From: an uncultured Candidatus Saccharibacteria bacterium
GTDB taxonomy: Bacteria; Patescibacteriota; Saccharimonadia; Saccharimonadales; CALMSM01
DNA length: 33,702 bases
Direction: 5' to 3'
NCBI GenBank assembly: GCA_964534095.1
Contig: CAZHPF010000001.1
Location: forward strand, 1 to 33,702
Shown: positions 8,961 to 31,634 of the stretch, piece after piece
How positions within the stretch are numbered: position 1 is the first letter of the stretch
How the letters are laid out: each line of letters opens with the position of its first letter
Translations under genes and position numbers: made by a program
Notes under the pieces: model-generated
Databases searched by the model: none
Seen by the model: the letters and a program-made list of their open reading frames with translations, nothing else
What the model was told of the DNA's origin: nothing

Positions 8961-9468
8961 GGCTGTAAAACTGGTTTATAACGTCTTCAAGGCCGTCAGC
9001 GATCTGGTCGGGAGTGTTTTTAATCATTTGCTTTATTTCATCAAGCGTCGCCCATTTGACTTCACTAACTTCTTCTGGCTCAAGCGTGAACACAGTCTCC
9101 CGATCCACTACTGCCTTGTAGACCTTATTGAATCTATTGAATATTCTGTCGCCATACACATAGTTACTCTGGTACATACCGATTTCCTTAAGCTTCGATC
9201 TGATACCAATCTCTTCAAACAGTTCGCGTTCGGCAGCTTGCTCATAATTTTCTGCTGCGTCTACATGACCAGATGCCGAATGATCCCAGCAGTTTGGGAA
9301 ACTAGAAACGGTTGAAGCCCGTTTCTGCAGAAGGATGCGCCCCTCTTTATCCTCAACATGAATCCGCACGATTCGATGGTATAAACCTTTGGCCTGAATT
9401 TCTTCCATAGAAGCCTTGCCGATAGGATTATCCTGTTTATCGACGACCAGTATGGGAGGGTACTTCAC
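8941..9468 (-). CDS. NUDIX hydrolase (IDI/YfcD-like subgroup by N-terminal pattern)
   Basis: Nudix box GHVDAAENYEQAAERELFEEIGI. GTG start at 9468, 3 nt after the recA stop. The conserved-looking N-terminus (ILVVDKQDNPIGKASMEEIQAKGLYHR) supports the GTG start. Confidence 0.85.
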   Translation of the reverse strand: MKYPPILVVDKQDNPIGKASMEEIQAKGLYHRIVRIHVEDKEGRILLQKRASTVSSFPNCWDHSASGHVDAAENYEQAAERELFEEIGIRSKLKEIGMYQSNYVYGDRIFNRFNKVYKAVVDRETVFTLEPEEVSEVKWATLDEIKQMIKNTPDQIADGLEDVINQFYSHEDNGN

Positions 9469-9471
9469 GGA

Positions 9472-10503
9472 CTAATCCTCTTTGGTTGCGGATTCGCGAA
9501 CCTTTTTGGCCAGTTCGCCCAAAACTTTGGGGTTTTCGTCGAGGTATTTTTTGGTGGCTTCACGGCCTTGGCCAATTTTTTCGCCGTTGTAGGCATACCA
9601 GGCGCCGGATTTTTCAACAATATCGCGTTCGGCAGCCATATCAAGTACGTCACCAGCTACGCTAATGCCTTGGTTGTACATAATATCAAATTCGGCTTGG
9701 CGAAAAGGTGGCGCAATTTTGTTTTTGACCACTTTAACACGTGTACGGTTACCAACAATCTCATCACCTTGCTTGATCTGGGCAATGCGCCGAATGTCCA
9801 TGCGGACAGAGGCGTAGAATTTGAGCGCGTTACCGCCGGTAGTAGTTTCGGGGTTACCAAACATCACACCAATCTTCATGCGAATCTGGTTAATAAATAT
9901 AACTGTTGTGTTGGATTTCTTTATCACGCCAGTAAGCTTGCGTAGTGCCTGGCTCATCAATCTTGCTTGCAAACCCGGCAAACTATCACCCATATCGCCT
10001 TCGATTTCAGCCCGCGGTACCAGTGCTGCGACCGAGTCGATAACCACCAGGTCAACAGCATTACTTCGTACTAGCGTTTCGGCGATTTCCAACGCTTGCT
10101 CACCGTTATCCGGCTGGCTTAAAAGCAGATTGTCAATATCTACACCAATGCGTTTTGCGTAGGCCGGATCAAGTGCGTGCTCAGCGTCAATGAACGCTGC
10201 CGTACCGCCTAGTTTTTGGATTTCGGCAATTACATGGAGGGTTAGGGTTGTTTTACCGGAGCTTTCAGGCCCATAAATTTCAACCACTCGCCCTTTGGGA
10301 ACACCGCCGCCAAGCGCCAGGTCTAGGCTCAGCGCACCGGTTGGCGTGGTCTCTACGTCATTATCAGTACGTTCGCCGAGCTTCATGATTGAGCCTTTAC
10401 CAAACTGCTTTTCAATTGACTCAAGCGCCAGGCCTAAGGCTTTTGCTTTGCCTGATGTTTGAGCGTCGTCAGTAGTTACTTTCGCCGCTTTATCTTTCGC
10501 CAT
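9472..10503 (-). CDS. recA: Recombinase RecA
   Basis: Walker [10 protein letters not shown], then [49 protein letters not shown]. Collinear with RecA over its full length. Confidence 0.97.
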
Positions 10504-10537
10504 TTCCCCTCCGGTTTAAGTCTTGTTATGTTACTTG

Positions 10538-10546
10538 ATTATACCA
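10538..10546 (-). promoter_or_regulatory. Extended -10 element (TGgTATAAT) upstream of recA
   Basis: The minus strand reads TGGTATAAT. It lies 34 nt upstream of the recA ATG, and GGAGGGG (rc of 10508-10514) is the SD. No good -35 hexamer at 17 nt. Confidence 0.45.
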
Positions 10547-10592
10547 GATATGGCCGGTTATGGCCTAACAAGAAGGTACTCACAACTCGTAA

Positions 10593-10621
10593 TTGACAAA
10601 TACAAAAAAGCTTTATATAAT
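10593..10621 (+). promoter_or_regulatory. Perfect-consensus sigma70 promoter
   Basis: TTGACA (10593-10598), an exactly 17-nt spacer, TATAAT (10616-10621). SD GGGAG (10636-10640) lies 7 nt before the ATG at 10648. Confidence 0.7.
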
Positions 10622-10647
10622 ACCCTTGATTTAAAGGGAGTTCTGCC

Positions 10648-11601
10648 ATGAACACACGTTTATTGCGCACCGTAGCATACACTCTCTCTGTATGCATCTT
10701 TCTGTTCACTATATCTTTTAACATTATCAATCCTGCCTCGCTCCAAGCCGCGGGTGTTGATTACGCCCTGCATCCTTACACCGAACGAGTTATGGATCGC
10801 ACATACGTCACTTTATTTAATCGTCACGTAGACGTGGGCGCACATGACTACTGGTATCCGCGACTTGTCGAACAAGCTAGCGCCAAATGGTTTGCCCAAG
10901 CGGTCATGAACAGCAACGAGTACCGTAATGGGTTAGGCAAGAAAAATGACACTGACTTTATAAATACCGTCTATACACGCGCTGCTAAGCGTAAGGCAAC
11001 GAATGCTGAGCAAACAATATGGAAGGCTGCTTTTAAGAATAGATCGCAAAGTCGCGCTAGCATGGTGGGTTGGGCTAGCGAAAATCTGTATACCTATAAA
11101 CTCACCCTCCCCAAAGCAACTCAAGGCTGCCAGCAATATAATAAAGGAGGCGCCCTACGTCCATTATGCGATAAGGGTTCTGCGGGTCATCAACGAAATG
11201 TGTCAATTGTCAGGATACCTGACACAAATATATACGTAAATCGTGTGTGGTACTACGAGGTTGATACTTTTATAAAGCTAGCTAAAAGCAAAGGCTACAC
11301 ATTGTCAGCTTCCCGCGAGCCTGACACACCTTCTTGGATGTTTTCGCCAGGTAGTTGGCGAAGCTGGGACGAACAAAATTGGCTCTACAACCACGGTTAT
11401 CCTGCAAACCCTCCAGGCAAATCAATGCATGAATGGGGACTAGCTATTGACTTCAACTGCAACAATAAGCATATTCAAGATTACCGCGCATGCTGGGACT
11501 GGGTGCGTGCCAATGGCGGCAAATACAATGTCCGCAACTTTCATACCGTGAGCCAACCATATCATTCCGAAGCATGGCATTTTTCTCCGAACGGTCTTTA
11601 G
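10648..11601 (+). CDS. Secreted DUF4214-type repeat + M15B/VanY-like (LAS) zinc D,D- or L,D-peptidase
   Basis: Signal peptide (TLSVCIFLFTISFNIINPASLQAA). DUF4214-like segments follow (YVTLFNRHVDVGAHDYWYPRL; FINTVYTRAAKRKATNAEQTIW). The C-terminal half has GSWRSWDEQNWLY, PGKSMHEWGLAIDF (H-x6-D) and SEAWHF (ExxH). Confidence 0.75.
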   Translation: MNTRLLRTVAYTLSVCIFLFTISFNIINPASLQAAGVDYALHPYTERVMDRTYVTLFNRHVDVGAHDYWYPRLVEQASAKWFAQAVMNSNEYRNGLGKKNDTDFINTVYTRAAKRKATNAEQTIWKAAFKNRSQSRASMVGWASENLYTYKLTLPKATQGCQQYNKGGALRPLCDKGSAGHQRNVSIVRIPDTNIYVNRVWYYEVDTFIKLAKSKGYTLSASREPDTPSWMFSPGSWRSWDEQNWLYNHGYPANPPGKSMHEWGLAIDFNCNNKHIQDYRACWDWVRANGGKYNVRNFHTVSQPYHSEAWHFSPNGL

Positions 11602-11678
11602 CTTTTTGACTCGTCACGCTTTCTAAGACCCTTTGCGTAGGAAATAAAAGACACCCATGTTTACAGAGAGTACGGAGA

Positions 11679-11707
11679 TTGCAAAAAAGTAATTTTTATG
11701 CTATTGT
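11679..11707 (+). promoter_or_regulatory. Candidate promoter for the 11726 gene
   Basis: TTGCAA (11679-11684), a 17-nt spacer, TATTGT (11702-11707). SD GGAGA (11716-11720) lies 5 nt before the ATG at 11726. Confidence 0.35.
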
Positions 11708-11725
11708 GTATAATTGGAGATTCCC

Positions 11726-12640
11726 ATGCCTGCACTACCCGGAGAAACCCCTGGCACGTTATCCCGCCGCCGCTTTATCGCCGACGCTGTAATAGTATTA
11801 GGTGGTGGCGCTTTGTTAGGAGTTGGCTCTTTATTACTTGACGATAGAGGCTTGCCTTCTGAACCGTCTTCTCCCTCCGCCCCTTCTCTGCCGGAATCAA
11901 TCAGCATCCCTGATGCAACGCCTTTGTCGACATCCACGACAGTGCCTATAGATCCTTCTCCTACCAGCGAAGTGGAGATACTCCCTGTGCCTGAGTTTCC
12001 AGATTTGACGAAGTTTGAGACAGGCGAATTCCTGGGCACTGCCACCATTCGTTATGTGGATACTCCTGAGCGTCCCGCCACTGAAATAGACGCTTATTAT
12101 GAACGTAAGGGATTAGCCAAGCCTCCTATGAACAATCCTTTTGTACACCAGCTTATTGCCGGTGGCGCAGAAGGTTCAGACGCTATTACCGATGAGATGT
12201 TGGCTCACGGCGTGGTAGCACATAAAATTAACGGGGCGGTTACTATCTTGGCAATGCATAATGTAACGCCGGTCGATGCGCCTGTGGCAATTGACGGTAC
12301 TACGCATAACCAAACGCAAATGGGTATCAATGCCGTGGTTGTACCTGGCGATGTATTAACACTGGTGTTGCCTGATCAAAGTGGCCTGTTGGCTAGTTTT
12401 TCATATAAAGCAGTGCGGAGTTGGATAATCGACACGCACGATGCGACCGCCAGCGAAGCAATCTTGCACGATAGTGAACCTTTTGGTACACAGAAAGTGC
12501 GAACCTATAAATGCTGGGAACCGGGCGATGACCGATACCGACTTGTTGATGAGTGGGTATGGATTAGTGCCGAGGTGTCTACAGCCGAAATTGCCCAAGG
12601 TAATGATGGTGACGTAGGCTCGGTTGGCCCAAATCTCTAG
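11726..12640 (+). CDS. Secreted hypothetical protein with a twin-arginine-type signal and a Pro/Ser-rich linker
   Basis: ATG at 11726 has an SD, whereas the track start at 11714 is TTG. The signal reads TLSRRRFIADAVIVLGGGALLGVG. A P/S/T-rich linker follows (PSEPSSPSAPSLPESISIPDATPLSTSTT). The globular C-terminal domain contains a single Cys (VRTYKCWEP). Confidence 0.7.
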   Translation: MPALPGETPGTLSRRRFIADAVIVLGGGALLGVGSLLLDDRGLPSEPSSPSAPSLPESISIPDATPLSTSTTVPIDPSPTSEVEILPVPEFPDLTKFETGEFLGTATIRYVDTPERPATEIDAYYERKGLAKPPMNNPFVHQLIAGGAEGSDAITDEMLAHGVVAHKINGAVTILAMHNVTPVDAPVAIDGTTHNQTQMGINAVVVPGDVLTLVLPDQSGLLASFSYKAVRSWIIDTHDATASEAILHDSEPFGTQKVRTYKCWEPGDDRYRLVDEWVWISAEVSTAEIAQGNDGDVGSVGPNL

Positions 12641-12658
12641 TGCACGCGAATAATTAAA

Positions 12659-12684
12659 ACACCTCCGCTTTTGCACGGAGGTGT
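12659..12684. terminator. Bidirectional intrinsic terminator between convergent genes
   Basis: Perfect 9-bp stem ACACCTCCG (12659-12667) / CGGAGGTGT (12676-12684) with an 8-nt loop. An A-rich run lies on the left, giving GUUUUAAUUAUU after the hairpin on minus-strand RNA. A T-rich stretch (tgtttgtttt) lies a few nt to the right. Confidence 0.7.
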
Positions 12685-12705
12685 CTACACTGTTTGTTTT
12701 ACGGG

Positions 12706-13311
12706 TTAAGCAGTGTGGCCGAACTGAAACCCGTCGCCATTTTGTGGCACAGGCTGTGGCCGAACCGGTACAGCGGGTGGAGCCACGGGCACTGACGGTG
12801 TAACAGGCTCTACGATATCTACTGGGGGAAGTTGTGGTTCCGTTGGTACATATGGGGCCGTGCTGGTGGTACTGGTGGTTGTAGTAGTCGGTTCCTCTAC
12901 GGTCGTAGGGGGTACTTCGGTGGTTGTTGTAGTAGTTGTAGTTGTACCATCTTCGCAGTCAAGTACTACTTGTTGGCTACCAATTTCACTTCCACCGCCA
13001 TCAAGCTGCGTAACTGTTACCGCTACATCTTCTAGTGCAGGGTCGGTTCCGAGCTCAAAGGTAAATCCTGGTTGGTGTCCTACTCTTGCTTGGTTTGTGG
13101 CGTCTTCCGTGTAACCACTGCCATCTCCGAAAGGCCCGACAGCAACATCGATGTTATAGCCGCCCTCACAATTTACACTAGCTACGGCGTCATTCATGGC
13201 TGCCGCTGCGGGGGCTGTGTCACCCACTACTAACCCACCAGCCGAAGCAGCAACCGTGGCTACGGCTAAAAGCGCCCTTGTTCTCAGTGATGGATCTCTG
13301 TCACTTAACAT
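12706..13311 (-). CDS. Secreted hypothetical protein: small two-Cys beta domain + poly-Thr/Pro-rich tail
   Basis: ATG at 13311 is preferred. The track start at 13329 is GTG and actually lies within the SD (GGAGGGGAG, 7 nt before the ATG). It has a signal-like RTRALLAVATVAASAGG and two Cys (VNCEGG, LDCEDG). The tail reads TTTTTTTTTEVPPTTVEEPTTTTTSTTST followed by PxxP repeats. No LPXTG motif and no TM anchor. Confidence 0.7.
   Translation of the reverse strand: MLSDRDPSLRTRALLAVATVAASAGGLVVGDTAPAAAAMNDAVASVNCEGGYNIDVAVGPFGDGSGYTEDATNQARVGHQPGFTFELGTDPALEDVAVTVTQLDGGGSEIGSQQVVLDCEDGTTTTTTTTTEVPPTTVEEPTTTTTSTTSTAPYVPTEPQLPPVDIVEPVTPSVPVAPPAVPVRPQPVPQNGDGFQFGHTA
12742..12945 (-). repeat. Low-complexity (ACN)n / (CCN)n coding tract (poly-Thr and Pro-rich linker)
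   Basis: Residues 123-190 of the 201-aa protein. The + strand shows runs such as ggttgttgtagtagttgtagttgt. Confidence 0.8.
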
Positions 13312-13433
13312 TATATAACTCCCCTCCACCCGTTAGTTATATTCACACTTCTAAGTATCAACAATTAGTAAAACTTGTCAAGGTGGTTCTAGCTATCGCG
13401 TTTTTGTCATGCTACAATTACAACATAAGCATT

Positions 13434-13973
13434 ATGAAAAAACGTGTCAGTGAATCGTCGAGTAACGTTGTAGTCGGTAAGGCGTCAAGTCGTCATCGTT
13501 TGCACAAGTTTTTAATTGTTTTCGCTGTACTACTGCTTTTTGCGGCAGGAGGATATGCTTACTGGAGACGTAATAATAATCATAAAGATACGACGCAAGC
13601 ATCTTTAACAAACCCGGCTGTGGTATGCAAAGAAGATAGATTAAAAGAAGCCGGTGCTGCTCTTACGAACAATAATCTCGGCGATCTCCAAAAAGCTACA
13701 CAAGAGATACAAAAATTAGAGGGTTATGCGTCAGATCCTAATTGTTTATATATCACTCTGACGGTATTTATACGGCAAAGTGATGCCGTAAATGCCCGAA
13801 CGGAGCTTAACAAATTATTAGCAGTTGATACGGCTGATTTTAGATATAACGAACACCTTGGCTCAGATAAGACACCGCTAGTAAGCCAACAGTCCTTCCA
13901 AGAAACCGTTGAGTTTCTTGAACAATCTCAAAATGAACCAGCCGAAAATGTTCGAAATATAGAGGGAGTGTAG
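13434..13973 (+). CDS. Single-pass membrane protein with a helical (TPR-like?) ectodomain, first gene of the pilus-side block
   Basis: ATG at 13434 (MKKRVSESSS) is preferred, since the track start at 13278 overlaps the divergent gene. TM helix FLIVFAVLLLFAAGGYAYW. TGcTACAAT (13410-13418) lies 15 nt upstream. Confidence 0.65.
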   Translation: MKKRVSESSSNVVVGKASSRHRLHKFLIVFAVLLLFAAGGYAYWRRNNNHKDTTQASLTNPAVVCKEDRLKEAGAALTNNNLGDLQKATQEIQKLEGYASDPNCLYITLTVFIRQSDAVNARTELNKLLAVDTADFRYNEHLGSDKTPLVSQQSFQETVEFLEQSQNEPAENVRNIEGV

Positions 13974-13978
13974 CGGTT

Positions 13979-16171
13979 ATGCGACTGACGGTATCTCACC
14001 CTATACGAGTAGCAACCTTATCTATACTGCTGTGCATTGGCATAATGTCACTACGGACAGGTAGCGCTAGCGCTGGAGCCATTGCCAACGATGTCAGTTC
14101 GGTTGCCCCTACGGCCGTAGCCAATGAAATTGAGAATCGATGCGTTAATTATGGGTGGAACGTAGTCCAACTTTCATGGGTATCGCCTCAAGGTGAACCA
14201 CGAACCACTACTGCTACGGTTAACGCAGGAGCTACCTCTGTAGCTTTACAATTAAATTACGTTAGTTATCGCTGCAAAGCTAATTCGCCGGCAAATTACT
14301 ACACAGTGACAGGACACTCCAAAATTACTGGCACCAGCCCTAGCATCGCAGCCCTCAATGGTAACGTAAGTGACATTCCTTACGTAAGTATTTCTACTAC
14401 AGGGAAACGTTCGGGAGTCGTAAAAACCTTTAATTATTCCCGACCCGGTGGCTTCAATAGCAGCATGAACATTAGCATTACCACCTATTCGCGAGGTGTG
14501 TTGACACAGGCCAATCCGACACGATATAAATGCGCCCTGGTTAATGTCTCTAACCCTAACACTACCGGACCTTATAATTTTGATCCATGCGAACAATCTA
14601 CCTCTGTGTTTACCATACGAGTAAATGTTAATAATAATAAGCCGACAATTGCGTTTGATGCGACCTGCTCGCGAATCGCTTATTACGTTGGAGACGCCGA
14701 CGATGACCTTTACGATGTGCGCATCATTATTGATGGTGAAGATAAACACGTTGAACAAGATCAGGCACCGAATGAACGCTTTGAGTCTAGCTTAACGCAA
14801 TATAAGGATTTTGGAGCTCATCAGATTAGTATTCGCGTGAGAAGTGACGGAGGACATGTTATTACCACAGGCGAGAAAGACATAGTAGGCTCTCCGTGCG
14901 CCACACCATCCTGTGAAGGCGTAACACTCCAGCCAAGTTCAGCGGCGGCCGGGCAATCGTTTGAAGTGAGGGCTACCTTTGATGCGAATATTGGAGCAGA
15001 GGGTAACGGCACACTATATAATGCCGTACTTAATTTGAGCGGGCCAGGAGCGATTACTGTCACTCCTACGAGTGGCGGACCCGGGAACTGGATAATAGAC
15101 GTTCCGCTTAGGTTAGTTGGTGGTGGTATTGGGCCTGGGGGAGGCGGCAACAGCGAGACAGCCATATGGACAGTGCAGTCAAATACAGCAGGCAATTATA
15201 CAGGGAATGTTGTGGTAACCGGTGGATTTAATTTAACCTGCCCAGTCGGTACCGTCGAGGTCGCCAACCATCCTTACCTGCGGGTGTGGCGAGGTGATGT
15301 GGTGGCTGGGTGTACACCGCCAAGTGTGAGTCCTTGGTACCCTACTAATACCGCAGGATCCGGCAAGATACAGGCATGGAACAATGATGCAGTGGGCGCT
15401 GGTGCCGGTACTGATGTGGCGGCGCAGGCCTTGGGAGTAATTGACGGATTTAGCAGTGGCCAGCGAAGTACGATGACAGTAGATGACTACCTAACCTTTG
15501 CCAATACCGGGTCTGGATGGGGTGGTAGTTTCGGAAGCGGACTCTGCGCCTCCGATTACTACAGTGGCGCACCAGCAACGAGTGGCAGTATTTCCTCGGC
15601 TAATCTTTCTAGCTTGGCTTCTGGTACATATTCTTACACTGGAGGGACGATAAGCGGGGCAACTATTGGAGCCGGGAAACACCTTACTATCTACGTAAAT
15701 GGAAACCTCACGATTACCAATGATATCACCTTCGGCAGTACAACAAATTGGTCAAGCGTTACCCAGATACCATCTTTAAAACTTATCGTCAGAGGTGATA
15801 TTAACATAAGTAATCCTGTGAATAACCTTAGCGGCACCTATATTGCTCAGCCTAGTGGCACTACCACGGGCGGTACTATATACACATGCACGAATGGTGC
15901 CACCCCGTACTCGGACACTGTTTCTAGCCGAACCGCTCTCATTAATAACTGCACTGACACCCTAACGGTATATGGATCTTTCGTAGCGCGCACTGTACGG
16001 TTCTTGCGTCTGAGCGGAAATGTCATTACGGCTAATAAGGCTGACGCAGTTGCTCAAGGTACAGCTGCTGAGAAGTTTATTTATAGTCCAGAGATCTGGC
16101 TTTCTGAAAGTGGCTCTAACGGTACCGCTGATGTATATGACTCTATTACTTCTCTGCCGCCAATTTTCTAA
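13979..16171 (+). CDS. Large (730 aa) secreted Cys-containing beta-rich protein, candidate pilus-associated adhesin
   Basis: SD GGGAG lies 10 nt upstream, 5 nt after the preceding stop. Signal peptide VATLSILLCIGIMSLRTGSASAGA. The protein is rich in N, T, S and G, with a Gly run (GGGIGPGGGGN). The C-terminal third has beta-helix-like short repeats (LTIYVNGNLTITNDITF, LKLIVRGDINISNPVNNLSGTYIA, LTVYGSFVARTV). I recognise no family. Confidence 0.75.
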   Translation: MRLTVSHPIRVATLSILLCIGIMSLRTGSASAGAIANDVSSVAPTAVANEIENRCVNYGWNVVQLSWVSPQGEPRTTTATVNAGATSVALQLNYVSYRCKANSPANYYTVTGHSKITGTSPSIAALNGNVSDIPYVSISTTGKRSGVVKTFNYSRPGGFNSSMNISITTYSRGVLTQANPTRYKCALVNVSNPNTTGPYNFDPCEQSTSVFTIRVNVNNNKPTIAFDATCSRIAYYVGDADDDLYDVRIIIDGEDKHVEQDQAPNERFESSLTQYKDFGAHQISIRVRSDGGHVITTGEKDIVGSPCATPSCEGVTLQPSSAAAGQSFEVRATFDANIGAEGNGTLYNAVLNLSGPGAITVTPTSGGPGNWIIDVPLRLVGGGIGPGGGGNSETAIWTVQSNTAGNYTGNVVVTGGFNLTCPVGTVEVANHPYLRVWRGDVVAGCTPPSVSPWYPTNTAGSGKIQAWNNDAVGAGAGTDVAAQALGVIDGFSSGQRSTMTVDDYLTFANTGSGWGGSFGSGLCASDYYSGAPATSGSISSANLSSLASGTYSYTGGTISGATIGAGKHLTIYVNGNLTITNDITFGSTTNWSSVTQIPSLKLIVRGDINISNPVNNLSGTYIAQPSGTTTGGTIYTCTNGATPYSDTVSSRTALINNCTDTLTVYGSFVARTVRFLRLSGNVITANKADAVAQGTAAEKFIYSPEIWLSESGSNGTADVYDSITSLPPIF

Positions 16172-16252
16172 CGTACTGTAATTATTGAGGTAAGGATCCG
16201 ATGAGCGGTAATAACTACCAAAAGGCTTATGTTTATTCTATACTAGGAGCAA

Positions 16253-25592: not shown

Positions 25593-26170
25593 GCCGCACC
25601 TTTCAGGGCTTGTTTTACGCGATCTTCCGTTGACAGTTTGGGGTCTATACTCTGCAACGCCGCCTGCGCATCTATATCTGAGTAACCAAGTGATACGAGT
25701 GCTCGTAGGGCTTCGTCGTTTTGGTTTACTCCGGACCGATTAACCAGACCTTCTGCTGCGTCGCCAACTGGCGCACCAACTTTATCGCGCAGTTCTACTA
25801 CCATTTGTTCGGCCGCCCTTTTGCCAACGCCCTTCGCTGTCTGGAGTAGTTTCACATCGCCTCCTGCGATGGCGCTGCGTACTATTCCTGCCGGTCCAAT
25901 ATCCAGGACGGCCAGAGCAACCTTGGGGCCAACATTTTTGACTGAGAGCAGCTGCTCAAATAAACGTTTACTGTCTGGTGTCCGAAAACCGAACAAATCA
26001 TGCGTGTCTTCTTTGATATGTTCGTAGATATAGAGCTTAATGTCTTGCCCTAGCGTGAGTGCATTCTGGTCGGCAGTCGTTACTAATGCGCCATAGCCTA
26101 CACCTCCACAATCAACAATCACGAGCTGATTTGTTTTTTCAATAATTTCACCGCGTAGAATTGCAATCAT
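25589..26170 (-). CDS. ruvA: Holliday junction DNA-binding protein RuvA
   Basis: MIAILRGEI, an OB domain, two HhH motifs (LLSVKNVGPKVALAVL; LQTAKGVGKRAAEQMV) and C-terminal domain III (ALVSLGYS). Confidence 0.92.
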   Translation of the reverse strand: MIAILRGEIIEKTNQLVIVDCGGVGYGALVTTADQNALTLGQDIKLYIYEHIKEDTHDLFGFRTPDSKRLFEQLLSVKNVGPKVALAVLDIGPAGIVRSAIAGGDVKLLQTAKGVGKRAAEQMVVELRDKVGAPVGDAAEGLVNRSGVNQNDEALRALVSLGYSDIDAQAALQSIDPKLSTEDRVKQALKGAA

Positions 26171-26173
26171 AGG

Positions 26174-27100
26174 CTAAGCTTTTGGGGTTGTGGGCGGATG
26201 ATGAGGGCGTGTATGTTTTTTACTTACTTCTTGGGCAGTAATCATGGCATTACGCATTTGCTCGCCGAGATCAGTCATGCCTGATGGAGAATGTGGGATT
26301 AGGATAGTGTTGGAATTACCTGTCAGGCCGATATCTTTGAGCGTGTCAAAATACTGCGTCATCATGACCAGATTCATCACATCTTGCGCATTGGTGCCCT
26401 CAACAGAGTTACTAAAGTTTTCGACCGATTCACGCAGACCCTCTATGATAGCTTTACGCTGGTCAGCAATGCCCCGCCCTTGCAGCGCCTTACTTTCGGC
26501 TTCACCTTCTGCTGCCTTCACGACACGGATTTTGTCGGCTTCGGCTTGCTCAACTGCCGCAACGCGCAACCGCTGGGCGGCATTGATTTCGTTCATACTT
26601 TGCTTGACCTTAGCGTCAGGGTCAATATCAGTAACAAGCGCTTTGACTATACCGTAGCCGAAATCGTCCATGACCTGGTCAAGTTCTGTTTTGACTGCCG
26701 AAGCAATCTCATCCTTCATTTGGAATAGTTCGTCTAGGTTGATAGTCGGAACCCTGGCACGTACTGTATCAAATACAAACGAAGTAATTTGTTGCTGGGC
26801 GTTTTGCAAACGATAGAACGCATCAACGACTTTTTCCGGCAACACGTAGTACTGCACACTCACCACAACAAACACAAAGACGTTGTCTTTCGTTTTGGTT
26901 TCTACCCGAACGTCAAGCTGCTGCACGCGCAGGCTTAACCTGCCAGCAATCCTATCGATAAGCGGGATTTTGAAATTCAAGCCAGCTGACGAAACTTTTC
27001 TAAACTTTCCAAAGCGTTCAACGAGTGCCGCTGTTTGCTGTTTTACCGTAAACAGTCCTGTCAGCAAAATAATGACAGCAATGACGACCAAAATCCACAT
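26174..27100 (-). CDS. SPFH/band-7 (stomatin/flotillin-like) membrane protein
   Basis: N-terminal TM helix, then VKQQTAALVERFGKF and a band-7 core. The coiled-coil region is Ala/Glu-rich (AAQRLRVAAVEQAEADKIRVVKAAEGEAE). No NfeD partner gene is adjacent. Confidence 0.85.
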   Translation of the reverse strand: MWILVVIAVIILLTGLFTVKQQTAALVERFGKFRKVSSAGLNFKIPLIDRIAGRLSLRVQQLDVRVETKTKDNVFVFVVVSVQYYVLPEKVVDAFYRLQNAQQQITSFVFDTVRARVPTINLDELFQMKDEIASAVKTELDQVMDDFGYGIVKALVTDIDPDAKVKQSMNEINAAQRLRVAAVEQAEADKIRVVKAAEGEAESKALQGRGIADQRKAIIEGLRESVENFSNSVEGTNAQDVMNLVMMTQYFDTLKDIGLTGNSNTILIPHSPSGMTDLGEQMRNAMITAQEVSKKHTRPHHPPTTPKA

Positions 27101-27145: not shown

Positions 27146-27604
27146 TCAGGCAATTGTTAGTGCGGCGGCAAGCGCATCGGCACAGTCGTCTGGTTTTGGT
27201 ATATCCTTTAGGCCGAGATGTACACGCACCATTTCTTGCATCTGCGCTTTCGTAGCCCTTCCATAGCCTGTAATGGCCTGTTTTATCTGGAGCGGTGTTT
27301 TTTCAACTAGTCGTAGGTTGTGTTTCCTGCCAAGCAGTAACATCACGCCACGCGCATGACTTACGCTTATTGCTGTGGTGACATTTTGTGCGAAAAATAG
27401 CTGCTCCACCACCATAGCTTCTGGCTTGTGCTCCACGATAATCTGCTCTAGCTCATTATAAATAGTAAGTAACCGCTCCGAAAGCTCCTGGTTTACCGGT
27501 GTACGTATCACACCGGCATCAACAAGCGTTGGCTTGCCTTTTATGACATCAATAACCCCAAATCCTACGATACCTGTCCCCGGATCAATCCCTATTATTC
27601 TCAT
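27146..27604 (-). CDS. ruvC: Holliday junction resolvase RuvC
   Basis: MRIIGIDPGTGIVGFGVI, VVEQLFFAQN, ITGYGRATKAQ, DDCADALAAAL. These cover the catalytic D/E/D/D positions. Confidence 0.9.
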   Translation of the reverse strand: MRIIGIDPGTGIVGFGVIDVIKGKPTLVDAGVIRTPVNQELSERLLTIYNELEQIIVEHKPEAMVVEQLFFAQNVTTAISVSHARGVMLLLGRKHNLRLVEKTPLQIKQAITGYGRATKAQMQEMVRVHLGLKDIPKPDDCADALAAALTIA

Positions 27605-27655: not shown

Positions 27656-29305
27656 TTAACGCTTATGGCGAAGACGCATATATAGATTCAGCATGTCGTA
27701 ACGATACTCGTATAACGCGTAGCCGATAATTACACTAAGCACTGCTCCGATTATAAGAACATTAGATTTGTGGGATGATTGGTCTTCGTCCTGAGGCTGC
27801 GACGAAGCAGCAGCCGATAACACCTTTCTACAGCGGTTTGTTTCAGGATTACGCTCCTGCCCCTGCTGGCATTGTTTTAGAGTAGAAGCATCTGTTGCAT
27901 CGCTGCGACAGCGGTTAGTGGCCGGGTTACGTACCTGTCCTGGTTTGCAAGGTGTCAGTGCTGAAGACGCAGTAGTAACAAGGTTGCGGCAACGATTGGT
28001 TTCGGGGTTTCGGTACTTGCCTAGGCCGCATGAGCTTAATGAAGTCTTTACCTCAATAGTACGGCAGCGGTTAGTGGCCGGGTTACGATACTTTCCGGCC
28101 GGACAAGGATCGAGTGTTGCCCCCTTGACAAGCGCAGCCAACACCATGCTTGACTCAAGGTTAGGCTGATTGGGCGTTGGTCTATCGGTAAACTGCCATG
28201 TACCATCTATGAGCGCCCAAGCAATATTGTCTTTAGGATTGCTATACAGGTCAGAGTTGCTTACCACGTCACCCGTTGGAGCCACGAGCAGCAAACTTGC
28301 CGACGAGTTTGGAAGTGAAAAACCTACGTCTGTATCCGAAAAGGTCTGATACTGTCCGGCTGCAATCGTCCCGCTTATAAACGTGTAGGTTGCCGATGCG
28401 CTCGGTTCTAACTTAAGCTGATAGCCTGTCAATGCAACGCTATGATTATTGGGATTGTACAGCTCGATGAACTCGTTGCCTGTATCATAGCTGCTAGTGT
28501 TTGGTAGCAGTTCGCTAATAACCAATGTAACGCTTTCCAGAAGAGCAGTTGTACATTCACCAGTGCTGCTGTGTTGGTAGCCGTCAGGAACATCTTTCTG
28601 CAGTCCGTCCAAATTACTGCACATATCCTGCTGACAGCTTCCGTCCGTATCATACAGATATCCGTCCGGCAGTTCAGCTTGCACACCCAGTATATTGGGG
28701 CAGACGTCCACCGGAACTGTTTGTACGTATAAACCAGGGTTGGGCGAAATGACGAGTTCGGTCAGTACAAAATCAGCCGCGTCGTCACCGGTATCCTGTA
28801 GCGTGGAGACATCGATTGGCAGGCGCTGGTATATTTGTCCAGCAGGTGCTTTACTGACCCAAGTAAATTGGTCGCGCACCACACCATTTGCGTCTACTAG
28901 TGATAAAAATCCACCTCCGTCCGCCATGCCTCCGGAAAACCCAGTATTGGCTTGTGGGATAAACGGGATATCTGCGTGAGCCGCAATAAACTCATGCGAG
29001 GCAAACGTGGTATAGCTATAGCTCGCCAGCCATAGACGATCTGCAGGATTAGTCGGCACTATACAGCCGGGCTTTGATAGCGAGTCTTTGTAAAACAAAC
29101 ACCAGCCGGTAACATCAATGTCTGTATTGGTGTTGTTGTAAATCGATACGTATTCTTGGCTGGCTGCGTCTTCGGCACCGGTTTGTACCTGAGCAATAAC
29201 CACCTCGTTGCCCATCGTTGCGAACCCAGTCGCTGTGCCAGAACCACACAGTATGGCGAGGGTTGCAACAAACAGAGGTAACAGAAGTACCCGAATGATT
29301 TTCAT
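27656..29305 (-). CDS. Membrane-anchored surface protein: 2x lamin-tail domain (LTD), 2x CPN-type Cys module, 4x CxxGxxRNPxTNRCR repeat, C-terminal TM anchor
   Basis: Signal peptide at the N-terminus. LTD hallmarks are EYVSIYNNTNTDIDVTGWCL and NEFIELYNPNNHSVALTGYQL. The two Cys modules are VCPNILGVQAELPDGY...GSC and MCSNLDGLQKDVPDGY...GEC. Four basic Cys repeats occupy residues 401-493. TM helix VLIIGAVLSVIIGYALY is followed by a basic tail. Confidence 0.85.
   Translation of the reverse strand: MKIIRVLLLPLFVATLAILCGSGTATGFATMGNEVVIAQVQTGAEDAASQEYVSIYNNTNTDIDVTGWCLFYKDSLSKPGCIVPTNPADRLWLASYSYTTFASHEFIAAHADIPFIPQANTGFSGGMADGGGFLSLVDANGVVRDQFTWVSKAPAGQIYQRLPIDVSTLQDTGDDAADFVLTELVISPNPGLYVQTVPVDVCPNILGVQAELPDGYLYDTDGSCQQDMCSNLDGLQKDVPDGYQHSSTGECTTALLESVTLVISELLPNTSSYDTGNEFIELYNPNNHSVALTGYQLKLEPSASATYTFISGTIAAGQYQTFSDTDVGFSLPNSSASLLLVAPTGDVVSNSDLYSNPKDNIAWALIDGTWQFTDRPTPNQPNLESSMVLAALVKGATLDPCPAGKYRNPATNRCRTIEVKTSLSSCGLGKYRNPETNRCRNLVTTASSALTPCKPGQVRNPATNRCRSDATDASTLKQCQQGQERNPETNRCRKVLSAAASSQPQDEDQSSHKSNVLIIGAVLSVIIGYALYEYRYDMLNLYMRLRHKR
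27827..28105 (-). repeat. Four tandem, roughly 26-codon coding repeats (C-x2-G-x2-R-N-P-x-T-N-R-C-R)
   Basis: CPAGKYRNPATNRCR, CGLGKYRNPETNRCR, CKPGQVRNPATNRCR, CQQGQERNPETNRCR. An exact 23-nt match (cagcggttagtggccgggttacg on +) occurs at 27909-27931 and 28065-28087, linking repeats 3 and 1. Confidence 0.9.
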
Positions 29306-29311
29306 GCACCC

Positions 29312-29339
29312 ATCATAGTGCCCTCTGAATGTGTGTCAA
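29312..29339 (-). promoter_or_regulatory. Near-consensus promoter placed to give a leaderless mRNA for the LTD gene
   Basis: The minus strand reads TTGACA (29339-29334), a 16-nt spacer, TATGAT (29317-29312), then 6 nt (gggtgc) to the ATG at 29305. No SD. Confidence 0.55.
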
Positions 29340-29348
29340 GCATTTTCT

Positions 29349-29398
29349 AATCTCAGCTTTAAATCAGAGTTAAAGCTGAGTTAACTCTGAGATTTTTT
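29349..29398. promoter_or_regulatory. Interlocked, mutually exclusive hairpins: likely yebC terminator and/or operator upstream of the LTD promoter
   Basis: Hairpin A is 29352-29362 (ctcagctttaa) with 29370-29380 (ttaaagctgag), 11 bp. Hairpin C is 29365-29373 (cagagttaa) with 29381-29389 (ttaactctg), 9 bp, followed by agatttttt on +. An outer pairing joins 29349-29356 (aatctcag) with 29387-29394 (ctgagatt). A and C share nucleotides, so they cannot form together. Confidence 0.5.
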
Positions 29399-29420: not shown

Positions 29421-30146
29421 TTAACTCAATAGTCCGTCGGCAATATCAAAATTTACGTGTGTAGCCGTAACGTCGTCACACTCTTCGAGGGCGTCCATGA
29501 GCCGCATGATCTTTCCGGCTGTCGCCGCATCATTCACCTCAACAGTGTTGGTTGGTACATAAGTTAGTTCGGCATCGGTAACTTGCAGACCAGCGGCCAC
29601 CAAGGAGTCGCGTACGCTGGCAAGTTCTTTGGAGTTAGTGTACACAATCAGTTCATTGTCTTCCTCTACGACGTCTTCGGCACCGGCTTCCAGCACTTGC
29701 AGCATAGCGTCGTCACCGCTGGCGTTAAGCCGGATCATGCCTTTATGGTCAAACTGGAAAGCTACCGCTCCCTTTTCAGCAATGTTGCCCCCATGTTTAC
29801 TGAACGCCAGGCGAACTTCTGGATAGGTTCGATTGGTGTTGTCGGTTGCCACTTCAACCAGGATAGCCACACCGCCTGGGCCGTAGCCCTCGTAGAGTAT
29901 CTCTTGGAGCTGGGCAGCTGACTTATCGCTGACCCGGTCAATAGCGCGTTGGATATTGGCCATGGGCATATTGGCGGCTTTGGCTTTATCGATGGCCAAG
30001 CGCAGCCCGAAATTAGTCTCAGGGTCAGCTCCGCCGCGGGCGGCAACGGCAATCATGTTACCAAGCTTGGTAAAAACAGCTCCACGAGCAGCGTCTTTGA
30101 CGCCTTTCTGTCGTTTAATGGTTGACCATTTGCTATGACCCGACAT
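29421..30146 (-). CDS. yebC: YebC/PmpR-family DNA-binding regulator / translation-associated factor
   Basis: MSGHSKWSTIKRQKGVKDAARGAVFTKL, EILYEGYGPGGVAILVE. Collinear with the family over its full length. Confidence 0.93.
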   Translation of the reverse strand: MSGHSKWSTIKRQKGVKDAARGAVFTKLGNMIAVAARGGADPETNFGLRLAIDKAKAANMPMANIQRAIDRVSDKSAAQLQEILYEGYGPGGVAILVEVATDNTNRTYPEVRLAFSKHGGNIAEKGAVAFQFDHKGMIRLNASGDDAMLQVLEAGAEDVVEEDNELIVYTNSKELASVRDSLVAAGLQVTDAELTYVPTNTVEVNDAATAGKIMRLMDALEECDDVTATHVNFDIADGLLS

Positions 30147-30167: not shown

Positions 30168-31634
30168 CTACTTCTTATCTGTTATTGTATCATTTTTGGT
30201 AATTGTTCGCCACAATATGAACGTTGCTAGGTCTATGCCTAGATATAAGATAATCATTACTTCTAGGGAGACGGGTTGCTCGATTAAGGCATGCGGCCAG
30301 CCTGCTAGAGTATGCGCGAGGTCAAGCATATAGGTAAGTATAAGGCGTGCTGGTGTTCCCACCCAGCCGCTGAGCGCTGGTGACACTGCGCCAGCAATAC
30401 CGGCCAGGAGGGTTGTGAGCATACCCAGCGGCACAAGCGGCACTACCAGCACATTGCTCAACAACCCTATAACCGATAGCCGGTGAAAGATATACATAAT
30501 GATTGGCAATGTCATCAGCTGCGCACAAAAACTTTCGATAACGAGTAGCGTTACTATGTTGGGCTGCCTGCCTATCTGCTCTAACCGCTTGACAATAAAC
30601 GGTGCTATCACCAGCACGCCGAAAAAAGCCAGAAACGACAGGTACCAGCCAATATCACTCCATAGATAGAGTGGATACCACCCCGCAGTGAGGGCAGCGG
30701 CGCACAGAATCAGCAGCACTGGACGAACTTTACGACCGTAGTACCATGCCCACAGGCCTATGATACTCACAATTGCAGCTCGTACGATAGAAGCTCCGAA
30801 TCCTGTAACAAGCAAAAAACTGCTAATCAAGGCCAGTGACCATATTGTCGCCTGGTACTTGGATCGCTTGCCTAGTTTGCGGCGGGTTATTTCTATGATG
30901 ACGGTAAGGTTGTAGCCAGACACAGCGATAATATGCGTCAGCCCGACCGTCGATAAATCGTCGCTAACTTGGTCGGGAAGCGAAGTTTTTTGACCAATCA
31001 GTATTCCAATACCAAACGAGGCCTGAGGTTCAGGCAAGGCATTGCGGATACCGGCACTAAATTTTAGGCGTAGTTTATCAAAGGCTGTCAGATGTCTGGT
31101 GGTTAGTGCAATAGAAGCGAAGCTTACGCCAGCCTGGCTTGAACCTCTTGTTTTGTAGAGCTTACCGGTTATGCGCAGTACGTCACCGCGAAACACGGCC
31201 GATGCTCCTCTGCCCTTTACGGTCAATTTGCCAGGCAACCGCTGCGGCGTAGGCGTAAGGACTTCTAAGGAATCGGCATCAAAGCTGATTTGTGCATTGT
31301 CGTATACTCCGTCGCTCTGAGCAATAACCTGTAGTGTGACTATTTGACCATACAGTCTGTCATACGCACTCAGTTTGTGCATGTAGACATTACCACGCCA
31401 ACATCCCACACATAGTCCCAGAACACACAACACCACACCTAGTACTTTTCGTCGTGTCCGCATCGTCGCGCACATAGCTAATACTAAAGCTACACATACA
31501 TATACCCAACTATCCCAGGCCGGTACTATGCGTGCGAGACCCAAGCCAACTAAGACACTTGCGAAAAACAGCGTCAGTAAGGTAGTGCGTTTGGTAGGGG
31601 GAGGATAAAAATAACGAGTCATTGCCGCAAGCAC
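30168..31634 (-). CDS. comEC: DNA internalisation channel ComEC/Rec2, short form (OB/DUF4131 + competence domain, no metallo-beta-lactamase domain)
   Basis: GTG at 31634 has GGAG 8 nt upstream; an alternative ATG is at 31622. N-terminal TM helices are followed by an OB-like segment (VTLQVIAQSDG...LTVKGRGASAVFRGDVLRITGKLY). A polytopic competence domain follows (GLTHIIAVSGYNLTVI, IVRAAIVSIIGLW). The protein ends at 488 aa. Confidence 0.85.
   Translation of the reverse strand: MLAAMTRYFYPPPTKRTTLLTLFFASVLVGLGLARIVPAWDSWVYVCVALVLAMCATMRTRRKVLGVVLCVLGLCVGCWRGNVYMHKLSAYDRLYGQIVTLQVIAQSDGVYDNAQISFDADSLEVLTPTPQRLPGKLTVKGRGASAVFRGDVLRITGKLYKTRGSSQAGVSFASIALTTRHLTAFDKLRLKFSAGIRNALPEPQASFGIGILIGQKTSLPDQVSDDLSTVGLTHIIAVSGYNLTVIIEITRRKLGKRSKYQATIWSLALISSFLLVTGFGASIVRAAIVSIIGLWAWYYGRKVRPVLLILCAAALTAGWYPLYLWSDIGWYLSFLAFFGVLVIAPFIVKRLEQIGRQPNIVTLLVIESFCAQLMTLPIIMYIFHRLSVIGLLSNVLVVPLVPLGMLTTLLAGIAGAVSPALSGWVGTPARLILTYMLDLAHTLAGWPHALIEQPVSLEVMIILYLGIDLATFILWRTITKNDTITDKK

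What the first reader, a model, noticed from the sequence alone, without database searches (positions are those of the whole stretch)
27656..29305. Surface-anchored double lamin-tail-domain protein with four basic CxxGxxRNPxTNRCR repeats, one gene from comEC: candidate extracellular DNA receptor
Seen in sequence: signal peptide, LTD, two CPNxxGxQxxxPDGY Cys modules, a second LTD, four arginine-rich Cys-bracketed repeats (residues 401-493), a TM helix and a short basic cytoplasmic tail. The gene interrupts the otherwise classical yebC-ruvC adjacency. It lies 860 nt from a comEC that lacks its nuclease-type (MBL) domain.

Established: bacterial LTDs are typically extracytoplasmic and have been described fused to nucleases/phosphoesterases. 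ComEC needs a surface DNA receptor (ComEA in model organisms), and no ComEA-like helix-hairpin-helix protein is in this window.

Inference: the highly basic RNPxTNRCR modules, held next to the membrane, could bind DNA or another polyanion and hand it to ComEC. The function of this repeat is, to my knowledge, uncharacterised.
Basis: partly seen in the sequence, partly recalled or inferred. Interest (0 to 1): 0.72.

Follow-up and report, generated by a model that had tools for sequence, protein, structure and literature searches.

The report
Saccharibacterial lamin-tail surface protein beside comEC
This is a real, strongly conserved membrane-anchored surface protein found across Saccharibacteria, always in a DNA-uptake and recombination gene block, but its proposed role as the missing DNA receptor for ComEC rests on circumstantial evidence and cannot be its only job.

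Summary
The ORF at 27656-29305 (minus strand, 549 aa) encodes a signal peptide, two lamin-tail (LTD) Ig domains, two CxNxxGxQxxxPDGY modules, four CxxGxxRNPxTNRCR hairpins, and a C-terminal membrane helix with a basic tail. It lies 862 nt from a ComEC that has no MBL domain.

It belongs to a large family (more than 2000 homologues). All 80 best genome hits are Saccharibacteria.

The order comEC-yebC-LTD-ruvC-ruvA is ancestral. comEC lies within three genes upstream in 62 of 78 loci. The comEC-LTD pair survived two independent break-ups of the block, but three other events separated the two genes.

Evidence for a DNA-handling role:
- LTDs are fused elsewhere to secreted nucleases and to ComEC-type MBL domains.
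- The transformable relative S. epibionticum has no annotated ComEA.

- The ectodomain is acidic in every homologue.
- The repeat region has a median net charge of only +3 across the family. This copy, at +11, is an outlier.
- The gene has its own promoter and sits tightest against ruvC.
- In published Tn-seq data the syntenic gene SEML1_0775 is strongly depleted, while comEC is dispensable.

Verdict: an uncharacterised but already annotated family. A DNA-handling scaffold is the best guess (about 0.35). A strict ComEA analogue is unlikely (about 0.12).

The parts
27656..29305 (-). CDS of the 549-aa LTD surface protein. It is identical to database protein P0001.
29219..29305 (-). Signal peptide, aa 1-29. 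The homologues have AxA-type cleavage sites. The Cys at position 20 is not conserved, so this is not a lipobox.
   Evidence: Hydropathy, alignment, AF2 helix at aa 2-19.
28718..29212 (-). LTD1, an Ig-like beta-sandwich at aa 32-196. Net charge is -13.
28553..28708 (-). Two CxNxxGxQxxxPDGY...C modules at aa 200-251. Cys residues are at 202, 224, 229 and 251. Copy number in the family ranges from 0 to 5.
   Evidence: No Pfam match.
28151..28540 (-). LTD2 at aa 256-385, carrying the ELLPNxxxxDTGxEFIELYNP signature. Net charge is -11.
27827..28105 (-). Four CxxGxxRNPxTNRCR units at aa 401-493. Each is predicted to be a beta-hairpin clamped by a disulfide. The first two carry Tyr at position 6; the third carries Val and the fourth Glu (the family consensus for both is Glu).
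   Evidence: - The motif matches and their conservation are.
- Pfam gives only sub-threshold matches: TNFR_nem at 22.3 bits against a cut-off of 27, and CBM_14 at 20.1 against 22.1.
27704..27766 (-). Transmembrane helix at aa 514-534. Y529, E533 and R535 at its cytoplasmic end are invariant (family motif GYxxxEWR).
   Evidence: The motif occurs in no other ORF of the 81 loci.
27656..27703 (-). Short basic cytoplasmic helix at aa 535-549, plus the stop codon.
29312..29339 (-). Promoter-like site, TTGACA-16-TATGAT (11 of 12 matches). Its -10 element ends 6 nt before the ATG, so the mRNA would be leaderless or nearly so.
   Evidence: A site placed the same way recurs at 26 of 81 orthologous genes, against 4 of 56 yebC genes.
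29364..29390 (.). A 10-bp AT-rich hairpin between yebC and the promoter-like site. It would be only a weak terminator for yebC.
30168..31634 (-). Context: comEC (DUF4131 OB domain plus Competence channel, no MBL domain).
   Evidence: All 59 ComECs in related loci are 529 aa or shorter.
29421..30146 (-). Context: yebC.
27146..27604 (-). Context: ruvC, starting 51 nt downstream of the LTD gene.
25589..26170 (-). Context: ruvA. An SPFH gene at 26174-27100 lies between ruvC and ruvA.

Best explanation
**What it is (shown).** This is the window organism's copy of a Saccharibacteria-wide type I membrane protein, present once in each locus examined. By architecture and gene order it is the counterpart of S. 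epibionticum SEML1_0775.
- It is exported through Sec and held in the membrane by a C-terminal helix that carries an invariant Y/E/R motif.
- About 480 residues lie outside the cell.
- Four disulfide-clamped beta-hairpin modules sit next to the membrane, followed outward by LTD2, two further Cys modules and LTD1.
- The number of Cys modules varies between homologues while the two LTDs stay constant. The modules therefore look like a stalk or spacer, and the LTDs look like the working ends.
- The gene has its own promoter-like site. It sits at the head of ruvC-(x)-ruvA, directly downstream of comEC-yebC.

**What it most likely does (inferred).** It is a scaffold at the cell surface for handling nucleic acid.
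- The LTDs are the same domain that other prokaryotes fuse to secreted nucleases and to ComEC-type MBL domains.
- Here they would hold extracellular DNA, or a partner that processes DNA, close to the membrane.
- That would serve a ComEC that has lost its own nuclease domain, in a lineage with no recognisable ComEA.
- Binding would not rely on simple positive charge, because the ectodomain is acidic. Divalent-cation bridging or a protein partner would be needed.
- The role is probably wider than transformation, for example nucleotide scavenging. Losing the gene appears costly in S. epibionticum, whereas losing comEC is not.
For: 1. **Architecture.** It is conserved in more than 2000 homologues. 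All 80 best genome hits are Saccharibacteria.
2. **Gene block.**
   - comEC lies within three genes upstream in 62 of 78 determinable loci.
   - yebC lies directly upstream in 56 of 81 loci.
   - ruvC lies directly downstream in 39 loci.
   - ruvB and recA follow in 43-54 loci.
3. **Persistence of the pair.** comEC and the LTD gene stayed adjacent after yebC and the ruv genes moved away. This happened in two independent lineages, covering 14-17 genomes. The two lineages have different flanking genes.
4. **Domain fusions elsewhere.**
   - Halobacterium ComA and Hlac_1867 combine an MBL domain with an LTD.
   - Hvo_1477 combines a thermonuclease with an LTD.
   - ExeM combines an LTD, OB folds and an EEP nuclease domain.
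   - Some DNase I enzymes carry an LTD.
   - Evidence: with a weak ExeM-LTD match.
5. **No ComEA.**
   - The ComEA KEGG annotation is found in only 31% of CPR genomes.
   - The ComEC-MBL fusion is essentially absent from CPR.
   - ComEA, K02237, PF12836 and PF10531 never appear in the annotation tables of S. epibionticum, which is naturally transformable through ComEC.
6. **Tn-seq.**
   - SEML1_0775 reads fall from 451 to 104 to 13, and surviving insertions from 30 to 6 to 1.
   - comEC stays near 12,000 reads.
   - ruvC insertions, which lie closer to the essential PBP gene, are still abundant at T1 (7 insertions, 1320 reads).
   - Polarity is therefore unlikely to explain the whole effect.
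Against: - There is no direct evidence of DNA binding and no known DNA-binding fold.
- The ectodomain is acidic in every homologue: LTD1, the Cys modules and LTD2 each have a median charge near -10. The repeat region has a median of only +3.
- ExeM lacking its LTD keeps near-wild-type activity in vivo and reduced activity in vitro. The role of prokaryotic LTDs is unresolved.
- All the gene-order evidence comes from one bacterial class with highly conserved gene order.
- The block also holds genes unrelated to DNA uptake: yebC, an SPFH gene, a PBP gene, a bPH gene and short-chain dehydrogenase (SDR) genes.
- Three lineages separated the LTD gene from comEC.
- No ComEC-LTD fusion exists among the top hits, whereas ComEC-YebC fusions do.
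- The nearby pilus genes resemble T4P locus two of TM7x. Mutants of that locus keep wild-type competence.
- The T36 transposon carries a terminator, so a polar effect in the Tn-seq data is not excluded.
Confidence: 0.35

Rival explanations
1. It is an envelope or host-contact protein with no role in DNA handling. On this view it is a conserved surface scaffold: Ig-like LTDs on a Cys-module stalk, needed for epibiotic growth through cell-surface organisation or contact with the host cell. Its position beside comEC and ruvC would be inherited gene order in a streamlined genome.
For: - In Tn-seq the syntenic LTD gene is depleted, while comEC, comFC, dprA and the adjacent pilBCM genes are not or only mildly.
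[quoted passage not shown] This gene is flagged as both core and Patescibacteria-enriched.
- The ectodomain is acidic in all homologues.
- The stalk length varies, as expected for a spacer.
- The gene has its own promoter-like site.
- The neighbouring pilus locus resembles T4P-2 of TM7x, which is used to bind the host and not for competence.
Against: - Conservation is high (30-54% identity across the class, with many invariant residues) and each locus examined holds a single copy. Both are unusual for host-specific adhesins.
- It does not explain why comEC and the LTD gene stayed adjacent through two independent rearrangements.
- It does not explain why LTDs elsewhere accompany DNA-degrading enzymes.
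Confidence: 0.3
2. The basic RNPxTNRCR modules bind DNA electrostatically next to the membrane and pass it to ComEC. The protein would be a dedicated replacement for ComEA.
For: - The repeat region carries +11 in this protein.
- There are three invariant Arg or Lys residues per repeat.
- The protein is membrane-anchored and extracytoplasmic, as Gram-positive ComEA is (established knowledge).
- comEC lies nearby.
- No ComEA is annotated in S. epibionticum.
Against: - The basic charge is not a family trait. The median is +3, the minimum is -2, and each repeat averages +1.2.
- Position 6 is E or an aromatic residue in 88% of units, which fits intramodule pairing with the Arg residues (inference).
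- The units fold as generic EGF/TNFR-like hairpin beads. They have no significant structural or sequence match to any DNA-binding protein.
- comEC is dispensable while the LTD gene is not.
- No fusion with ComEC was found.
Confidence: 0.12
3. It is a wall-binding anchor. The hairpin modules, which resemble the central CxxGxxFNPxTxxC hairpin of chitin-binding peritrophin-A (CBM14) domains, would bind peptidoglycan or another wall glycan just above the membrane. The protein would then coordinate with wall synthesis.
For: - CBM_14 gives a sub-threshold match: 20.1 bits against a cut-off of 22.1, E 7e-4.
- The best, non-significant PDB sequence hit is an insect polyphenol-binding protein with the motif CALGTVFNPNTRNC.
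- A class A PBP sits in the same gene string in S. epibionticum and in four of the loci.
- A conserved aromatic residue occupies position 6 in the first two repeats.
Against: - All the similarity is below threshold.
- Only two of the four units carry the aromatic residue.
- The window has no PBP gene in this string.
- Nothing in the LTDs points to glycan binding.
Confidence: 0.1

Closest known systems
[quoted passage not shown] 2023, Cell, PMC10633639, Tables S1 and S2)
   Same: - It holds the same position, comEC-yebC-LTD-ruvC.
- It has two LTDs plus a C-terminal region that the authors' structure-based domain parser (DPAM) labelled 'TNF receptor-like'.
- It is flagged as a core, Patescibacteria-enriched family.
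   Different: - It is 630 aa rather than 549 aa.
- A PBP gene lies between ruvC and ruvA there.
- The paper's main text never discusses the gene.
ComEA (DNA receptor of competent bacteria)
   Same: - It is extracytoplasmic and membrane-tethered in monoderm bacteria.
- It is encoded next to comEC.
- It fills a role that appears vacant in Saccharibacteria.
   Different: - The protein has no HhH or SLBB domain.
- Its anchor is C-terminal rather than N-terminal.
- Its ectodomain is acidic.
- The gene lies downstream of comEC with its own promoter.
- Its fitness phenotype is stronger than that of comEC.
LTD-bearing extracellular DNA enzymes: ExeM/Xds (LTD + OB + EEP), Hvo_1477 (thermonuclease + LTD), Halobacterium ComA and Hlac_1867 (ComEC-type MBL + LTD)
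   Same: - The LTD sits on a secreted or membrane-tethered protein that deals with extracellular DNA.
- There is a weak sequence match to the LTD of ExeM.
   Different: - There is no catalytic domain at all.
- There are two LTDs plus two kinds of Cys module.
- There is no GlyGly-CTERM signal and no lipobox.
Ig-fold tail of nuclear lamins A/C, B1 and B2
   Same: It has the same fold. These are the only significant PDB structure matches.
   Different: - Sequence identity is 15-20%.
- The setting is extracellular and bacterial.
- The basic DNA-binding character reported for the lamin tail (cited) is not mirrored here.
Single-hairpin Cys modules of the TNFR, EGF and LDLR type, and the CBM14 core hairpin
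   Same: - They are short beta-hairpins clamped by a disulfide and strung like beads.
- Pfam gives sub-threshold matches, and a 22-residue alignment to the BR3 hairpin reaches a TM-score normalised to the target of 0.65.
   Different: - Each unit has only two Cys residues.
- The RNPxTNRCR signature is unique to this family in everything I searched.

Membership tests
Pfam LTD (PF00932) domain proteins | The HMM score exceeds the gathering threshold. | tested here: met
   80.5 bits against a cut-off of 34.3, in two stretches.
Pfam LTD (PF00932) domain proteins | It has the Ig-like beta-sandwich fold of the lamin tail. | tested here: met
   AF2 pLDDT is 84-96 over both domains. Foldseek hits 1ifr, 3gef, 3jt0, 3umn and 2lll at E 1e-4 to 1e-2.
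Saccharibacterial LTD surface-protein family (SEML1_0775-like) | The architecture is signal peptide, LTD, Cys modules, LTD, RNPxTNRC hairpins, then a TM helix with the GYxxxEWR motif. | tested here: met
Saccharibacterial LTD surface-protein family (SEML1_0775-like) | It sits between yebC and ruvC, downstream of comEC. | tested here: met
ComEA | It has a helix-hairpin-helix DNA-binding domain (HHH_3) and usually an SLBB domain. | tested here: not met
   Neither Pfam nor NCBIfam gives a hit.
ComEA | It binds dsDNA outside the cytoplasmic membrane. | not testable with these tools
   This needs EMSA or anisotropy on the recombinant ectodomain. The charge profile argues against simple electrostatic binding.
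ComEA | It is required for transformation. | not tested
   Only fitness data exist, from Tn-seq. No transformation assay of an LTD mutant was found.
LTD-bearing extracellular nucleases (ExeM/Xds type) | It has a nuclease domain (EEP, SNase or MBL) alongside the LTD. | tested here: not met
   LTD is the only Pfam domain. The NCBIfam ExeM model scores 15.3 bits against a cut-off of 1300.
TNFR-like Cys-rich domain (PF25314 TNFR_nem) | The HMM score exceeds the gathering threshold. | tested here: not met
   22.3 bits against a cut-off of 27 for this protein. Homologue P0097 reaches 29.0.
CBM14 / peritrophin-A chitin-binding domain | The HMM score exceeds the gathering threshold and the six-Cys pattern is present. 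| tested here: not met
   20.1 bits against a cut-off of 22.1, and only two Cys residues per unit.
C-terminal sorting-signal proteins (LPXTG, GlyGly-CTERM, PEP-CTERM types) | A signature motif lies on the outer side of a C-terminal TM helix and is shared by several cargo proteins. | tested here: not met
   The conserved motif lies at the cytoplasmic end of the helix. It occurs in no other ORF among 1574 ORFs of 81 loci.

The most novel reading that the evidence does not exclude
The LTD protein is the long-sought functional substitute for ComEA in Saccharibacteria, and perhaps in other CPR lineages that lack ComEA. It would be a DNA receptor built from lamin-tail Ig domains rather than helix-hairpin-helix motifs. 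It would capture extracellular DNA at the membrane for a nuclease-less ComEC and also feed nucleotide scavenging, which would explain why it matters more for growth than ComEC does.
Probability: 0.2. Interest if true: 0.8.

Novelty: new variant of a known kind. Interest (0 to 1): 0.52.

Why it matters
- Saccharibacteria and other CPR bacteria cannot make nucleotides. They are naturally transformable through ComEC, yet most lack a recognisable ComEA, and their ComEC lacks the nuclease domain. Méheust et al. [quoted passage not shown]
- This family is conserved, exposed on the surface, apparently important for fitness, and encoded beside comEC. That makes it a concrete candidate that can be tested.
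- S. epibionticum and TM7x are now genetically tractable, so the test is feasible today.
- If the DNA role fails, the protein still stands as a conserved, uncharacterised envelope component that appears to be needed for epibiotic growth.

Tried and rejected
- **ComEC-LTD fusion proteins.** I searched with a chimeric query made of ComEC aa 250-488 joined to LTD protein aa 32-400. No hit among the top 120 covered both halves; the highest coverage was 63%. ComEC-YebC fusions turned up instead.
- **The repeat in other architectures.** I ran phmmer with the C-terminal 155 aa against 1.84 billion representative proteins. All 150 top hits were the same family or fragments of it. The weaker hits could not be inspected.
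- **PDB sequence search with a profile of the repeat region.** Nothing was significant; the best E-value was 4.
- **Foldseek on the repeat-only model.** Nothing scored below E 0.02. The hits were generic EGF, LDLR and TNFR beads.
- **C-terminal sorting signal.** I rejected this idea.
- **Diverged ComEC in the Microsaccharimonas clade.** I asked whether the 411-438 aa gene upstream of yebC was a diverged ComEC. A ComEC HMM rejects it. By eye it looks like a Y-family polymerase.
- **Lipoprotein.** The Cys in LAILC is not conserved, so I rejected this.
- **DNA-level tandem repeats, Rfam families and tRNAs.** None were found.
- **Literature.** No paper in the library discusses this protein or names an LTD protein as a ComEC partner.
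- **Pilus genes as support for competence.** I considered the nearby pilus genes as supporting evidence and set them aside. They match T4P locus two of TM7x, whose mutants transform normally.
Full report
**1. The observation**

The ORF at 27656-29305 (minus strand) encodes 549 aa.
- Pfam finds two lamin-tail domains: PF00932, 80.5 bits against a cut-off of 34.3.
- Pattern searches place four exact CxxGxxRNPxTNRCR units at aa 401-493 and two CxNxxGxQxxxPDGY units at aa 202-243.
- Hydropathy gives an N-terminal signal-like segment and a C-terminal membrane helix at aa 513-534, followed by a +3 tail.
- An AlphaFold2 model built on a 30-sequence alignment has a mean pLDDT of 78. It shows two confident beta-sandwiches, one beta-hairpin per C-terminal unit, and a terminal helix.
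- Foldseek matches only the Ig-fold tails of lamins A/C, B1 and B2.
- The neighbours are as described: comEC (DUF4131 plus Competence domain, no MBL), yebC, the LTD gene, ruvC, an SPFH gene and ruvA, all on the minus strand.
- None of the 37 window ORFs scanned has a ComEA-type domain.

**2. The family**

- The protein has more than 2000 database homologues of similar length, most between 500 and 650 aa. Where a source names them, the name is 'lamin tail domain-containing protein' from Saccharibacteria or Patescibacteria.
- A genome scan found 425 relatives. The 80 best are all Saccharibacteria or Saccharimonadia.
- The architecture is conserved throughout.
- Module numbers vary: 2-6 membrane-proximal hairpins, 0-5 central modules, and even three LTDs in P0037.
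- Y529, E533 and R535 at the cytoplasmic end of the helix are invariant. No other ORF in the 81 loci carries that motif.
- The C-terminal 155 aa recovers only this family among the top 150 of 1301 representative hits.
- The two Cys modules have no Pfam model. The hairpins give only sub-threshold matches to TNFR_nem and CBM_14, no PDB sequence match and no significant fold match.
- The repeats are old. There is no repeat at the DNA level.

**3. Gene context**

I analysed 81 loci at the ORF level, including the window.

| Arrangement | Loci |
|---|---|
| comEC-yebC-LTD | 45 |
| comEC directly upstream of LTD | 14 |
| comEC-x-LTD | 3 |
| yebC-LTD without comEC nearby | 11 |
| LTD with neither comEC nor yebC | 5 |
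| Cut by a contig end | 3 |

- ruvC lies directly downstream in 39 loci.
- The block continues with ruvA, ruvB, a bPH gene and recA, then pilM, pilC and pilB on the other strand, in about 40 loci. The window, its nearest relatives and S. epibionticum share this layout.
- I mapped the arrangements on a neighbour-joining tree of the LTD proteins and compared flanking genes.
  - The direct comEC-LTD arrangement arose twice. One large clade shares a GmrSD_C-like gene upstream of comEC. The second event is L066 and L074, nested among genomes with the ancestral order.
  - Three events separated the LTD gene from comEC: the L001 clade, the Microsaccharimonas clade and L010.
- Linkage to comEC is therefore real but no stronger than linkage to ruvC.
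- Median gaps are 14 nt to ruvC, 47 nt from yebC and 60 nt from comEC.
- A near-consensus promoter-like site sits immediately upstream of the LTD start codon. A site placed the same way recurs in 26 of 81 orthologous loci, against 4 of 56 yebC genes. The gene is therefore probably not simply co-transcribed with comEC.
- A chimeric-query search found no ComEC-LTD fusion but did find three ComEC-YebC fusions.

**4. Published evidence**

- Wang et al. 2023 (PMC10633639) showed that S. epibionticum is naturally transformable, that a comEC deletion is viable, and that the deletion abolishes transformation. They list ComEC, DprA, ComFC and type IV pili as the machinery and never mention ComEA.
- Their annotation tables contain no ComEA, K02237, PF12836 or PF10531.
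- Their Table S1 lists SEML1_0777 (ComEC), SEML1_0776 (YebC), SEML1_0775 (LTD protein), SEML1_0774 (RuvC), SEML1_0773 (PBP) and SEML1_0772 (RuvA), in that order.
- The LTD gene is flagged as a core, Patescibacteria-enriched family and is called NE/ES/ES (non-essential at T0, essential at T1 and T2). Insertions fall from 53 in the input to 30, 6 and 1. Normalised reads fall from 451 to 104 to 13.
- comEC stays at about 12,000 reads and is called non-essential throughout.
- The transposon carries a terminator, and ruvC starts 5 bp after the LTD gene, so a polar effect on the essential PBP gene is possible.
- However, ruvC insertions lie nearer the PBP gene and are still well represented at T1: 7 insertions and 1320 reads. 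I therefore judge that polarity is unlikely to explain the whole effect. This is an inference.
- Their Table S2 assigns the C-terminal part to a 'TNF receptor-like' fold.
- Méheust et al. 2019 report the ComEA annotation in 31% of CPR genomes against 67% of other bacteria, propose an alternative DNA-binding mechanism, and note that ComEC-MBL fusions are essentially absent from CPR.
- LTDs accompany extracellular DNA enzymes in several lineages. However, ExeM without its LTD keeps near-wild-type activity in vivo and reduced activity in vitro, and the role of the LTD is unresolved.
- In TM7x, the pilus locus next to recAX (T4P locus two) is needed for host binding and not for competence.
- No paper in the library discusses this protein.

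**5. The proposed mechanism**

- Across 79 orthologues the repeat region has a median net charge of +3, ranging from -2 to +12. Each unit averages +1.2. The window's +11 is close to the family maximum.
- LTD1, the central modules and LTD2 are acidic in every member, with medians of -10, -11 and -10.
- Repeat position 6 is Glu in 43% of units and Tyr or Phe in 45%. In a hairpin this residue would face the invariant Arg13 and Arg15. That suggests the arginines are engaged within the module. This is an inference.
- The variable number of modules fits a spacer role.
- If the protein handles DNA, the LTDs are the more plausible contact. Binding would then need cation bridging or a partner protein.

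**6. Conclusion**

- The protein is a real, conserved, Saccharibacteria-wide type I surface protein. It is already annotated generically and flagged in a Tn-seq table, but it has never been characterised.
- Two independent lines point towards extracellular DNA: its gene neighbourhood here and LTD fusions elsewhere. The lineage also lacks ComEA and the ComEC nuclease domain.
- Several findings argue against a dedicated, charge-driven ComEA analogue:
  - the acidic ectodomain;
  - the non-conserved basic charge of the repeats;
  - the gene's own promoter;
  - equal linkage to ruvC;
  - the absence of ComEC-LTD fusions;
  - a fitness phenotype stronger than that of comEC.
- My estimates are about 0.35 for a broader DNA-handling scaffold, 0.30 for an envelope or host-contact role unrelated to DNA, 0.12 for the strict reader model, and 0.10 for a wall-binding anchor.

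**Limits**
- All the gene-order data come from one bacterial class.
- The distribution of the family outside Saccharibacteria was not resolved.
- Orthology with SEML1_0775 rests on gene order and domain layout.
- No binding or interaction could be tested here.

Noticed in passing
window 29312-29339 (minus strand); loci L001-L082: A near-consensus sigma-70-like site, TTGACA-16-TATGAT, ends 6 nt before the ATG of the LTD gene, which implies a leaderless or near-leaderless mRNA. Sites of at least 9 of 12 matches whose -10 ends 4-12 nt before the start codon occur at 26 of 81 LTD genes and 20 of 56 ruvA genes. The figures for yebC and comEC are 4 of 56 and 6 of 56.
   Followed up: partly
proteins P0266, P0267 and P0268, on the same contigs as the LTD homologues P0002 and P0003: In the window organism's closest relatives, comEC and yebC form one in-frame ORF of 730-733 aa. 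In P0266, ComEC aa 1-484 is followed by the 8-residue linker RRHVGRRH and then by full-length YebC. In the window the two genes are 21 nt apart.
   Followed up: partly
window 8361-23627: The window also holds recX (8361-8960), recA (9472-10503), pilB (16253-18064), pilC (18068-19282), pilM (19367-20431), two small downstream ORFs (20428-21671) and ruvB (22590-23627). The block running from comEC through ruvCAB and recA to pilMCB recurs in about 40 Saccharibacteria loci and in S. epibionticum SEML1_0758-0777. It resembles T4P locus two of TM7x, which is dispensable for competence.
   Followed up: partly
window 13979-16171 (plus strand): A 730-aa ORF directly upstream of pilB has no Pfam match. 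A homologue near the LTD gene was found only in the window itself.
   Followed up: no
window 1544-6816: There is a MoxR-type AAA ATPase (4950-6062), a DUF58 gene (4051-4953), two VWA genes (1544-3591) and a divergently oriented sortase (6205-6816).
   Followed up: no
window 23627-25023 (minus strand): Two short-chain dehydrogenase ORFs overlap by 91 nt as listed (23627-24439 and 24349-25023). The true start of the downstream one is probably internal.
   Followed up: no
loci L056, L058, L065, L069, L075, L079-L081: In the Microsaccharimonas clade comEC is absent from the 10 kb upstream. The gene before yebC (411-438 aa) is not ComEC by HMM. By eye it looks like a DinB-type Y-family polymerase.
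   Followed up: partly
locus L002 10641-11243; S. epibionticum SEML1_0787: A VKOR gene lies about 1 kb downstream of the LTD gene in L002. A DsbA-family gene is called essential after T0 in S. epibionticum. Both fit a dependence on extracytoplasmic disulfide formation, which this 15-Cys protein would need.
   Followed up: no
protein P0037: This is an expanded family member of 845 aa, with three LTDs, an acidic low-complexity linker and six hairpin units.
   Followed up: no
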